Of a stretch of 64,000 nucleotides of DNA, positions 23,305 to 26,300 are shown in pieces (position 1 is the first letter of the stretch; the number at the start of each line of letters is the position of its first letter). The DNA is from Myxococcales bacterium (GTDB lineage: Bacteria > Myxococcota_A > UBA9042 > JABWCM01 > BTVJ01), in NCBI GenBank assembly GCA_045863395.1, contig BTVJ01000019.1, positions 1 to 64,000 of the forward strand. The letters run 5' to 3'. The position numbers are program-made.

Positions 23305-26300
23305 GTGCCGCGAGTCGCTCCTCGACGGCATCAAGCGCGCCACCGACGTGATGATCGCCGGCAAGGTCGCGGTGGTCGCGGGCTACGGCGACGTGGGCAA
23401 GGGCTGCGCCCAGAGCCTGCGGGGCCAGGGGGCGCGGGTGGTGATCACCGAGATCGACCCCATCTGCGCGCTCCAGGCCGCCATGGAGGGCTATCAGGTC
23501 ATGACCATGGACGAGGCAGCCGCCATCGGCGACCTCTTCGTCACCGCCACCGGGTGCTGCGACGTGGTGACCGGCGCCCACATGACCCGCATGAAGGACC
23601 GGGCAATCCTGTGCAACATCGGGCACTTCGACACCGAGATCGACATGGCCTGGCTGGAGTCGAACCCCGAGGTCAAGGAAGAGAACGTCAAGCCGCAGGT
23701 GGACAACTTCGTGTTCGCCGACGGGCGCAAGCTGACGGTCCTCGCCCGGGGGCGCCTCGTGAACCTGGGCTGCGCGACGGGCCACCCGAGCTTCGTCATG
23801 TCCAACAGCTTCACGAACCAGGTGCTGGCCCAGCTCGCGCTGTGGGACAAGGCCCAGACCTTCCCCCTCGGCGTCCACGTGCTGCCGAAGCACCTGGACG
23901 AGCTGGTGGCGCGGCTTCACCTCAAGAAGCTCGGCGTCAAGCTGGAGACCCTGACCGGGAAGCAGGCCGAGTACCTGGGCGTGCCCGTCACCGGCCCCTT
24001 CAAGCCCGAGTACTACCGCTACTAGGGTCATCTCCGGCGAGGGCGAATCACCGGATTGACAGCCTGCGCAATGTCTCCTAGCCTCGTGGTTCCATCCACA
24101 GTCGCCAGGAGGCCGCCATGCAGCAGACCCAGCCTCGGCAGCCCGCCCCATCGACCAAAGGGGCATCCACGCAGAAGCCAGGGAGCCCCACGGGCCACCT
24201 CCGCGGCATGGGCTATGCGGCCGCCAGCGCTGCGGTGGGGCCCTCGGCGCAGGAGCCTCCGGACGTGGCCGCGCTCAAGGCGCGGTACGGGGCGCTGCTC
24301 GGGCAGGACCTGTCGCGGGTGAACGTTCACACCGGCAGCCAGGCCCCCGACGCCGCGGACGCCGCGGGCTTCGCCACGGGGACGGACGTCCACCTGGGTA
24401 TCAGCGCCGAGGAGCTGGGCAGCGACGAGGGGCAGGAGCTCATCGCCCACGAGCTGGTCCATGCGGCGCAGAGCATGCGCGCGTGCGGCGAAGAGATGGA
24501 TGAGACCCTCGCCGAGGCCGAGGCCGAGGACGTCGCGGCCATGATCGTCGCAGGAGTCCCCGCGACGGTCGCCCAGGGCGCTGCCCCCGGCGCGAAGCTC
24601 CACAAGAAGAAGAAGCCCAAGGTGCCGAACCGGCTCACCCCAGCCCAGGAGTGGGCGGCGATCACCTACAACGCCAAGCGCTACACCACCAGCAAGATGG
24701 TGCAGATCCAGAAGACCGTCGGGGTCCCCGCCGACGGCATCGTGGGTCCCCAGACCGTGGAGGCCATCGCGGCTTTCCAGGCGGCGCATGGGCTGGAGCC
24801 CGACGGCAAGGTGGGCCCGCTGACGAAGAAGGCGCTCGGGGTGGCCCCTCCGAAGAAGCCCAAGCCCGCCAAGCCCAAGCCGGGGGGCGGGCACGCCGGG
24901 AACCTCCTGACCCCCGCGCAGGAGGCGTCCGCCATCGGCTACAACGAGGCCCGCGGCTTCTCGAAGGCACAGCGCATCCAGATCCAGGAGATCGTCGGCG
25001 CCGACCCCGACGGAGACATCGGGCCGCAGACCGTTGAGCGCATCGCCGCATGGCAGAAGTCCCATGCGCTGGAGCACGACGGGAAGGTGGGCCCTGGCAC
25101 CGGCGCCAAGATGGGCATCAAGCCCGCGGGCGGCGGGAGCGTGGGGATCTCACCGAACGCGAGCAACGGCGCCAAGCTCAGCTACGCGAAGAAGATGGCG
25201 CCGCAGTTCGGCCTGGTGATCACGTCGACCACCGGTGGCAAGCACGCCCCCGGCTCCTACCACTACGCGGGCCGCGCCATCGACGTGGCGGGCAGCGCGT
25301 CGGCCATGGCCAAGTACTACAACCACATGAAGCAGCTCAAGCCGACCGAGCTCTTCTACGACCCCCTCGGCGGCATCAAGTACGGCCAGGAGATCGGCGC
25401 CATCGGCGGCCACTCCGACCACGTACACGTCGCCTTCTGACGTCCACGACCCTGTCAGGCGCCCGTGGTGAGCGCCGCCCGGACGGCGCTGCGGAGCTCG
25501 ATGCCTGCGCCGGCGGCCGTATCGCGCCGGCGGGCGAGACCCGTGCCCAGCAGCTCGGCGCAGACGGCAGAGACGCTGGAGCCGGGACGGAGCCCGCGCG
25601 TCAGGGAGACACGATCCACCGGGGTCCCCGCCGCGACGATGACGTCCAGCGCCCTCCGGGCGGCGGGGGACAGCGACGCGATCACCGCCGGGTCGACCTG
25701 GTGGGGTGATCCACGCAGGACGATACGCTCGGCGTGGGCCCGCTCGAGCGCCCCGACGACGGGAGAGGGCAGCCCGTCCGTGCAGGCGAGGAGCAGCAGC
25801 GGGGCCCTCCGCTGCAGGAGCTGCTCCACCAGGGCAGCGCTGCCCTCGTCGCCCCACTGGGCGTCGTCCAGGACGATCACCACGGGCTTTCGGACGGCCA
25901 GGCGAGCGATCAGCTCGCGCAGCGCCTCCCCCGGGAGGCGGGGCACGCGCCGCGCCGCCGGTTGCGGGAGGCGGCCAAGGGTCGGGAAGAGCGCGGTCAA
26001 CTCCCTGAACGAGCCCGGGAGCAGCGTCGCCACCTCGTGCCTCGACAGCCACCCCAGGTGGGCCGCCAGCGCCTCCATGATCGGGTCCAGGCACCGGAGC
26101 GGCAGCGCCTCCTGAGGGTTCGACGCCCCGGCGAGCGCAAGGCACCGGCGCCCCTCCTGCCGGACCAGCTCACGGACGAGGCGGGTCTTGCCCGAGCCCG
26201 ACGGCCCCTCCACAACGATCACCCGCCGCGTGCCCGTGGCCACGTCGTCCAGGGCCGCTCGCAGGGTCACGAGCTCCCGCTGGAGCCCCGCGAGGGGTTC

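What a model noticed while it worked through the whole genome (the two positions that open the first line are those of the whole stretch)
24118..25440. A conserved N-terminal sequence motif (LRGxxYxxGAAxVxP) marks a genome-wide set of signal-peptide-less toxin cargos and [...]
Sixteen scattered, otherwise unrelated proteins without an evident Sec signal peptide carry one short motif, L-R-G-x-[GST]-Y-x-x-G-A-A-x-[VL]-x-P, at residues about 25-45 after a polar leader; examples are g02472 (here), g02787 C24:15097, g04172 C50:2451, g03383 C33:38324, g05175 C83:12227, g05306 C88:29015, g04000 C45:32249, g00235 C1:324956, g04880 C72:1428. Their cargos are peptidoglycan-binding and hydrolase domains (CHAP, Tae4, lysozyme g, M15), calpain, DUF4157/eCIS_core and orphans. 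The motif co-occurs with the eCIS (operon at C80:6320-19130) across the class and is proposed as its cargo-loading signal.
Evidence so far: HMM from 5 seeds converged on 10 proteins, all hits at residue 20-29. With 15 seeds the only strong non-seed hit in 6421 proteins was g06060, again at residue 26; in leave-one-out, 14 of 15 held-out proteins ranked 1-3 among non-seeds, one ranked 19. Class UBA9042: motif in 75 of 107 genomes, up to 19 matches in one; Pvc16_N in 79 of 107; both 68, motif only 7, Pvc16 only 11, neither 21; family f3 has 0 of 13 for both. In 29 top loci from 29 other genomes the motif again starts about 18-37 residues after a Met in most, and 20 of 29 carry a Pfam cargo or marker: PG_binding, glucosaminidase, SLT, GH46, M15, calpain (6), caspase, Tse2 ADP-ribosyltransferase, eCIS_core (7). 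T6SS sheath families [...]
(Added by a program. Inside this text positions count along the whole contig: contig position 1 is position 1 of the stretch shown here. "Call 12" and the like, gene names such as g00115 and contig names such as C1 are that model's own, and its searches are not shown. The text may have been shortened before it was handed on; [...] marks where a part breaks off. The agent that wrote the report below was given it as the finding of a first reader that could run no searches.)

Follow-up and report, generated by a model that had tools for sequence, protein, structure and literature searches.

The report
Conserved address tag on bacterial toxins
Many unrelated cell-wall-cutting enzymes and proteases in a group of uncultured myxobacteria start with the same short sequence tag, which occurs only in genomes that also carry one type of syringe-like injection machine and is probably the label that gets them loaded into it.

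Summary
The motif is real. The 440-aa window protein and 16 other scattered proteins of this genome carry a 15-residue motif, L-[RAK]-G-[ML]-[SGDNT]-[YF]-x-[EADQ]-[GQ]-x-x-A-[LV]-x-P, at residue 27-38 behind a polar leader. The motif keeps its N-terminal place in 28 of 29 loci from other genomes and 15 of 15 from a closed genome. Cargos include peptidoglycan hydrolases, calpains and DUF4157 proteins; a third or more have no Pfam match. It was found in 69 of 107 class genomes, and all 69 carry contractile injection system (CIS) genes. T6SS (5/107) and type III or flagellar export (27/107) do not track it, and Tad was absent from both motif-bearing genomes tested. New here: a stand-alone Afp15/Pvc15-like ATPase clade follows the same distribution and is the likely loader. 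The motif also reaches three other Myxococcota lineages with the same sheath subtype, though most such genomes lack it. Best reading (0.65): a CIS cargo-sorting signal with a conserved sequence, unlike the known eCIS signals, which have no consensus. No loading or binding experiment exists, and co-inheritance could mimic the link.

The parts
24056..24084 (+). sigma70-like promoter (-35 at 24056-24061, 17-base spacer, -10 at 24079-24084)
   Evidence: read from the sequence; consensus match only
24107..24112 (+). Shine-Dalgarno site, which supports the start at 24118
24118..25440 (+). gene for a 440-aa candidate CIS cargo, a putative peptidoglycan hydrolase; stand-alone between a gene resembling S-adenosylhomocysteine hydrolase (read by eye) and a convergent kinase-like gene
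24118..24198 (+). polar Q/S/T/P-rich leader (residues 1-27), no hydrophobic signal-peptide core, low-confidence coil in the model
24199..24243 (+). conserved 15-residue motif (residues 28-42), proposed cargo-sorting signal
24271..24480 (+). eCIS_core (DUF4157) domain, residues 52-121
24727..25113 (+). peptidoglycan-binding repeats (PG_binding_1 at 24727-24837 and 25003-25113)
25165..25437 (+). C-terminal domain with a hedgehog/M15-type zinc peptidase signature (weak, below cut-off)
   Evidence: HH_signal, E 0.03; hedgehog chains, E 0.6-0.9

Best explanation
The polar leader plus motif is a cargo-sorting signal for a chromosomal contractile injection system of Myxococcota. Shown: the motif, its fixed N-terminal place, the cargo domains, a CIS gene set split over three loci (C80, C18, C90), and co-occurrence with it. 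Inferred: (1) the motif is a short binding element with an invariant closing proline; (2) it is read, directly or through an adaptor, by a stand-alone Afp15/Pvc15-like WHD-AAA ATPase (G000 C95:24808-27021), which unfolds the cargo into the tube as proposed for Pvc15 and Alg15; (3) the particle delivers wall hydrolases, proteases and other enzymes to prey or competitors. One tag would let up to about 25 scattered genes per genome use one machine. The large DUF4157 cargos that lack the motif mostly lie near their own ATPase paralogue. Odds: 0.65 that it is a sorting signal for this CIS; about 0.5 within that for the C95 ATPase as direct reader.
For: Position: 6 of 6 score-only recruits, 28 of 29 loci from 29 other genomes (the 29th is cut by a contig end) and 15 of 15 sites fetched from closed genome G064 lie 22-49 codons after a start codon. 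No hydrophobic signal core in 17 of 17 leaders. Of 9 PG_binding_1 proteins in G000, 6 have the motif, 2 have lipoprotein-type signals instead and 1 has neither. eCIS_core follows the motif in 3 of 17 here, 4 of 29 and 3 of 15 (one shared). Co-occurrence: 69 of 69 motif genomes carry a CIS-type gene. Motif and Pvc16 are both missing in f3 (13 genomes), four g17 genomes, G020, G046 and G066. G030 has a diverged sheath (69%) with no WHD domain and no motif. ATPase: the only WHD-AAA found in motif-bearing G015, G016 and G021 groups with C95 (SH-aLRT 100), while four f3 copies group with a different paralogue. A C95 match at E<=1e-150 occurs in 66 of 69 motif genomes, 0 of 13 f3 and 0 of 5 g17. It had no recurring cargo-like neighbour in the 27 loci where it was called. 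It is 28% identical over 85% of its length to the ATPase at the Afp15 position of a Serratia plasmid cluster. Outside the class, the unbiased scan hit 2 of 323 genomes, both among the 28 with the same sheath subtype; G116 has the closest sheath of all 323. Literature: N-terminal disordered sequences are needed for loading and Pvc15/Alg15 are required (PMC9054023; bioRxiv 10.64898/2026.05.27.728243).
Against: No experiment. The sheath tree repeats two pairs of the RpoB tree, so motif and CIS look co-inherited, and any other system lost along with them would give the same pattern. The CIS does not need the motif: 15 Pvc16 genomes of the class had no hit (12), and 24 of 28 outside genomes with the same sheath subtype had none or one weak hit. 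6 of 9 eCIS_core proteins of G000 lack it. None of the 17 motif genes lies beside the CIS loci, and no special upstream DNA motif links them. The gp19 and Baseplate_J hits in the five motif-only genomes could come from prophages. The E<=1e-150 threshold also catches ATPase paralogues (5 matches in G000). PVC signals tolerate every point mutation tested (PMC9054023), which is unlike a strictly conserved motif.
Confidence: 0.65

Rival explanations
1. The motif serves the CIS pathway but not loading: it binds a chaperone or adaptor that keeps the enzyme inactive or unfolded, or acts after injection, while the disordered leader alone loads.
For: Published eCIS signals work through polarity and disorder within the first 20-50 residues (PMC11297309; 10.1101/2023.11.13.566157). 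The motif lies behind exactly such a leader. A second short V-Q element follows it in 25 of 88 sites against 3.6 in shuffles, which suggests several modules.
Against: No dedicated chaperone gene recurs beside the 17 cargos. The motif's fixed distance from the start fits a sorting step.
Confidence: 0.12
2. The motif addresses a different, unrecognised export or release route (for example vesicles or a lineage-specific machine) that was inherited and lost along with the CIS.
For: Co-inheritance looks vertical. Many genomes with the same sheath subtype lack the motif. G000 also encodes a T6SS and flagellar export, and some cargos resemble T6SS effectors (Tae4, Tse3_N, Tse2, VgrG3-like C).
Against: VipB is in only 5 of 107 genomes. 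FHIPEP is in 0 of 20 f5 and 0 of 37 f18 genomes, where the motif is in 13 and 25. RcpC is in 0 of 4 genomes tested, including G000 and closed G064. The CIS marker DUF4157 is fused behind the motif repeatedly.
Confidence: 0.13
3. The motif is a turnover or localisation tag, such as a degron or a membrane or wall anchor, on potentially self-harming enzymes; or the CIS acts inside the cell, as in Streptomyces, and the proteins serve self-lysis.
For: Short N-terminal motifs are read by AAA unfoldases (own knowledge). The fibre and baseplate genes have sub-cut-off matches to the CIS12 and CIS13 families. Cytoplasmic CIS are known in Streptomyces (search listings).
Against: It does not explain the restriction to CIS-bearing genomes as simply. 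Small genes, several with signal-peptide-like starts, lie next to 6 of the 17 cargos and look like immunity genes (read by eye).
Confidence: 0.06
4. The motif is a leftover shared by descent from an ancestral leader-DUF4157 module and has no present function.
For: A minority of members carry DUF4157, and leaders can be shuffled as a block.
Against: The flanks are unalignable while Pro15 is invariant in 70 of 70 sites across several lineages. About 80% of members lack DUF4157, and the spacing to it varies from about 10 to 45 residues. P0002 has two tandem copies.
Confidence: 0.04

Closest known systems
PVC/Afp N-terminal signal peptides read with Pvc15/Afp15 (PMC9054023; PMC11495950; 10.1101/2023.11.13.566157; passages read)
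   Same: N-terminal, polar, about 50 residues, no Sec signal, unrelated cargos; a homologous WHD-AAA ATPase is present.
   Different: Those signals have rare or no conserved residues and tolerate alanine scanning. Here a 15-residue consensus holds across a class and three further lineages. Cargo genes and the ATPase are scattered rather than in or beside the operon.
AlgoCIS loading sequence, Cgo1/Cgo2 with Alg15 (bioRxiv 10.64898/2026.05.27.728243; passages read)
   Same: Disordered N-terminal part, optional DUF4157, variable C-terminal effector. The N-terminal part is required and DUF4157 dispensable. The authors propose system-specific signals read by the AAA+ protein.
   Different: They report the sequence as not conserved between systems, with only pairwise similarity within one. 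No motif was defined, and there are two cargos rather than 17-27.
eCIS-associated toxins and DUF4157/eCIS_core, PF13699 (PMC11297309; passages read)
   Same: Hydrophilic N-terminus, DUF4157 in part of the set, toxin-like domains.
   Different: [quoted passage not shown] These are dispersed, and about 80% lack DUF4157.
T6SS effector markers MIX, FIX, RIX (recalled; RIX seen only as a search listing)
   Same: An N-terminal marker shared by polymorphic toxins and usable to mine new effectors.
   Different: These are longer domains tied to T6SS; here a 15-residue motif, with T6SS in only 5 of 107 genomes. No NCBIfam or PDB match to the motif.

Membership tests
eCIS N-terminal loading signal | Lies in the first ~50 residues; polar and disordered; no Sec signal | tested here: met
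   Motif at 27-38 in G000; leaders rich in Q/S/T/P with low hydropathy in 17 of 17; residues 1-45 low-confidence coil in a poor single-sequence model
eCIS N-terminal loading signal | Host encodes a CIS (tube, sheath, baseplate, spike, Pvc16) | tested here: met
   G000 C80, C18 and C90; 69 of 69 motif genomes carry a CIS-type gene
eCIS N-terminal loading signal | Host encodes a Pvc15/Afp15-type ATPase | tested here: met
   C95 WHD-AAA, homologous to the ATPase at the Afp15 position; match in 66 of 69 motif genomes
eCIS N-terminal loading signal | Necessary and sufficient for loading, ATPase-dependent | not testable with these tools
   Needs particle proteomics and reporter fusions
eCIS N-terminal loading signal | No sequence consensus (as described for PVC, Afp, AlgoCIS) | tested here: not met
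   Clear consensus over 70 sites; this is the new feature
eCIS cargo | Gene in or next to the CIS operon | tested here: not met
   0 of 17 lie on the CIS contigs C80, C18 or C90
Extracellular (released) CIS | Particles released and acting on other cells | not testable with these tools
   Gene content alone does not separate released, anchored and cytoplasmic CIS
T6SS effector marker | Confined to genomes with a T6SS | tested here: not met
   VipB 5 of 107 against motif 69 of 107
Type III secretion signal / chaperone-binding motif | Confined to genomes with an FlhA/SctV export gate | tested here: not met
   FHIPEP 27 of 107; 0 of 57 in f5 and f18, which hold 38 motif genomes; flagellar in G000
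Tad/Kil substrate | Host encodes a Tad machine | tested here: not met
   RcpC 0 of 4 genomes, including G000 and closed G064; only four tested, with one family

The most novel reading that the evidence does not exclude
This is the first contractile-injection cargo signal with a real sequence code: a 15-residue tag read in trans by one orphan Pvc15-like ATPase, routing a genome-wide arsenal of up to about 25 dispersed antibacterial enzymes into a single CIS in uncultured Myxococcota. A second tier of large cargos would use private ATPases. The tag would work as a search key for new toxin folds among the orphan cargos.
Probability: 0.4. Interest if true: 0.88.

Novelty: new variant of a known kind. 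Interest (0 to 1): 0.72.

Why it matters
How a CIS picks its cargo is open: the papers read say no conserved signal was found and the mechanism is unclear. A defined motif with a candidate ATPase makes recognition testable residue by residue. It also marks some 350 matches in 107 genomes as candidate effectors with no need for operon context; 6 of 17, 10 of 29 and 8 of 15 scanned members had no Pfam match. It points to CIS-delivered wall hydrolases as a weapon of myxobacterial relatives; this gene's best RNA-library holders are sludge and wastewater metagenomes.

Tried and rejected
Complex prediction of the motif (32 aa, 44-row alignment) with the C95 ATPase N-domain (residues 18-240): verdict 'no answer', score 0.00, controls not folded; it is no evidence either way. 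Single-sequence fold of the window protein: pLDDT 40, uninformative. Atlas search on a leader gave no usable hit. Profile searches of the large protein libraries lack power for so short a motif: 4 hits, one of them false from summed repeats, and 11 hits, at least 7 of them this genome's own proteins or near copies. PDB and NCBIfam showed nothing above noise. No shared regulator site upstream of the 17 genes beyond sigma70-like boxes. Horizontal co-transfer of CIS and motif was not supported (quick trees, 13-14 rows). The C16 candidate was dropped. Of 35 exact-pattern hits among 185,579 species genomes, 26 are N-terminal motifs, 1 is likely and 8 are chance hits; none is convincingly outside Myxococcota. 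Nineteen of the 26 have Myxococcota, Myxococcales or Deltaproteobacteria titles and 7 have vague or doubtful ones. Relaxed search of five same-subtype outside genomes: 3 of 15 hits were N-terminal motif variants, the rest noise. RNA: 18 of 20 listed runs holding the gene are on record as RNA, but I did not lay them on the gene. Contigs of four runs from four studies cover all or part of the C80 CIS stretch; contigs cannot show transcription or level. Earlier-findings look-ups returned nothing.

Full report
Observation. The window is contig C19 of G000 (8.77 Mb, 186 contigs, 71% GC). The ORF at 24118-25440 encodes 440 aa behind a Shine-Dalgarno site and a sigma70-like promoter. Its layout is polar leader, motif (28-42), eCIS_core (52-121), peptidoglycan-binding repeats and a weak hedgehog/M15-type peptidase signature. 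A profile from four seeds, recruiting by score only, converged on ten sites. All six recruits have an ATG 27-36 codons upstream, against 6.7% of background positions, and each of the ten ranks first or second of 15.5 million windows when left out. Eight further candidates were picked with a position filter. One lay in the shadow frame of a real gene and was dropped, leaving 17. An HMM of the 18 found no non-seed above 10.2 bits against 16.6-29.8 for seeds. The revised consensus from 70 distinct sites is L-[RAK]-G-[ML]-[SGDNT]-[YF]-x-[EADQ]-[GQ]-x-x-A-[LV]-x-P, often with Arg three residues before and always ending in Pro.

Cargos. Of the 17, 11 have a Pfam match: PG_binding_1 in 6, eCIS_core in 3, and Tae4, CHAP, M15, calpain, and sub-cut-off Tse3_N and SLT; 6 have none. 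Nine are wall-related. The leaders are enriched in Q, S, T and P and none has a hydrophobic core. In reverse, of 9 PG_binding_1 proteins in the genome 6 have the motif, 2 look like lipoprotein L,D-transpeptidases with their own signals (read by eye) and 1 has neither. Of 9 eCIS_core proteins 3 have the motif and 6 do not. The genes are mostly stand-alone; small possible immunity genes lie beside six of them (by eye).

Other genomes. The 17-row profile hit 56 of 107 class genomes. In the top loci from 29 of them, 28 have a start codon 22-45 codons upstream (ATG 22, GTG/TTG 6) and one is cut by a contig end. Nineteen of 29 have a Pfam hit, one of them spurious; these include eCIS_core 4, calpain 4, a caspase, a Tse2-type ADP-ribosyltransferase and GH46 (some proteins truncated by the locus). 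In closed genome G064 I fetched 15 of its 19-21 hits; all 15 lie 29-49 codons after a start and 7 have a Pfam hit. A 46-row profile hit 69 of 107 genomes, up to 27 matches in one.

Which machine. G000 encodes a CIS in three places. C80 holds Pvc16, two sheaths, two tubes, a tail-chaperone-like gene, a 1573-aa orphan, a CIS_tube-LysM protein and a GPD hub. C18 holds gp25, baseplate J, a PASTA-tail protein and a fibre candidate. C90 holds a free spike with PAAR. Pvc16_N is in 79 of 107 genomes: both 64, motif only 5, Pvc16 only 15, neither 23. The five motif-only genomes have a gp19 tube (4) or Baseplate_J (3, including the fifth), though such genes can be prophage-borne. A later profile added three Pvc16 genomes among the 78 class members it covered. 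Joint absence falls in about five lineages, judged by family and genus labels: f3, g17, G020, G046 and G066. T6SS VipB is in 5 of 107. FHIPEP is in 27 of 107 and absent from f5 and f18, which hold 38 motif genomes; in G000 it is flagellar. Tad RcpC was absent from four genomes tested, two of them motif-bearing.

Candidate loader. No ATPase gene was called in the CIS stretches read in G000, G064 or G116. WHD-domain matches are in 97 of 107 genomes, many copies each, including 8 of 13 CIS-less f3 genomes. G000 has 13 full WHD-AAA genes, several near large cargos. One clade stands out. The sole WHD-AAA found in G015, G016 and G021 groups with G000 C95:24808-27021 (SH-aLRT 100, quick tree of 32 rows), whereas the f3 copies group with C17. 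A C95 match at E<=1e-150 is in 81 of 107 genomes: 66 of 69 motif genomes (the three misses are 67-84% complete), 0 of 13 f3 and 0 of 5 g17. The threshold also admits paralogues. It had no recurring cargo-like neighbour in the 27 of 30 loci where my script called it. It is 28% identical over 85% of its length to a Serratia plasmid ATPase that sits between the tape-measure and DUF4255 genes of an injection cluster, the Afp15 position (the name Afp15 is recalled).

Reach. In a 401-genome phylum sample, 2 of 323 genomes outside the class were hit, with true N-terminal motifs and the same cargo types. Both are among the 28 outside genomes whose sheath matches G000's at E<=1e-200, and G116 ranks first. 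A broader profile at E<=0.05 hit 20 of 323: G254 (11 matches, 2 seeds), G116 (8, 5 seeds), G282 (5, 1 seed), G326 (2, both seeds), G332 (2, weak) and 15 single weak hits, about the 16 expected by chance. G282 and G326 were first examined because of their sheath, so they are not unbiased. None of the 97 outside genomes with other sheath types had more than one hit. Against the reading, 24 of the 28 same-subtype genomes had none or one weak hit. RpoB places the four outside genomes in three lineages, and the sheath tree repeats two of its pairs, so the link looks like old co-inheritance with losses, not transfer. An exact-pattern scan of 185,579 species genomes found nothing convincing outside Myxococcota, but such a pattern misses variants.

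Mechanism. The most likely reading (0.65) is a sorting signal for this CIS, read by or on behalf of the orphan Afp15-like ATPase and followed by unfolding into the tube. Position, cargo and distribution are shown; recognition, loading and delivery are inferred from PVC and AlgoCIS. Rivals are a non-loading role in the same pathway (0.12), an unrecognised co-inherited route (0.13), a turnover tag or intracellular use (0.06) and a vestige (0.04).

Literature. I read passages only, found by term search. PMC11297309: no specific conserved sequence detected. bioRxiv 10.64898/2026.05.27.728243: N-terminal part required, DUF4157 dispensable, sequence not conserved between systems, Alg15 required. PMC11495950: rare homology, loose groups of signals. 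PMC9054023: rare conserved residues, point mutations tolerated, Pvc15 essential. 10.1101/2023.11.13.566157: no consensus. PMC13277306: a DUF4157 protein contacts a tube initiator in Streptomyces, an alternative docking route. Six searches listed no paper describing this motif by title or abstract start; one search returned none. The library lacks most subscription papers. I read no supplements; the predicted-toxin tables of PMC11297309 and the signal groups of PMC11495950 could include some of these proteins.

Verdict. Observation confirmed with a corrected consensus; interpretation partly supported and strengthened. New variant of a known kind; interest 0.72.

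Noticed in passing
G000 C80:6323-7480 and C90:17194-17988 (L018, L082): The VgrG/Afp8 spike is split into a hub gene in the operon and a free OB-fold spike gene elsewhere, single-copy in four class genomes tested; in G000 it is followed by PAAR and a 727-aa gene.
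   Followed up: partly
G000 C95, C46, C50, C17, C122, C107, C30, C37, C1, C27, C16: Thirteen WHD-AAA (Pvc15-like) paralogues in one genome, several near very large motif-less proteins; one clade also occurs in CIS-less family f3, so it may have another job.
   Followed up: partly
motif proteins in L001-L211: A short V-Q-[MRKLA] element follows the motif within 40 residues in 25 of 88 sites (shuffles: mean 3.6, maximum 10), often directly after the closing proline.
   Followed up: partly
P0002: A 420-aa protein with two tandem copies of the motif and a VgrG3-like C-terminal domain.
   Followed up: partly
G064 L200, L201; G000 C4:39440-39817: Very short motif proteins (75-125 aa), some with little beyond the tag or one peptidoglycan-binding domain; possible adaptors, decoys or remnants.
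   Followed up: no
G000 C18:50521-52759; L073:675-3073: Two FHA-domain genes (one with a vWA-like region) follow the CIS fibre gene; similar-looking genes follow it in G064.
   Followed up: partly
G030:C4 (L193): A diverged sheath (66-69% identity) with Pvc16 in a genome with no WHD-AAA and no motif; perhaps a separately acquired CIS.
   Followed up: partly
G000 C11:89887-103050: A compact T6SS-like cluster; VipB occurs in only 5 of 107 class genomes.
   Followed up: no
G000 C80:8245-12963 (L018:5246-9964): A 1573-aa low-complexity gene without Pfam or NCBIfam match at the place of a tape-measure protein; about 2000 aa in G064 and 921 aa in G116.
   Followed up: no
G000 C2:245478-246602: A peptidoglycan-binding protein with neither signal peptide nor motif; endolysin-like, possibly for particle release.
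   Followed up: no
window 25455-28997 (-): A kinase-ATPase-like gene and a helix-turn-helix/NB-ARC-like gene (both read by eye) converge on the cargo gene; no link found.
   Followed up: no
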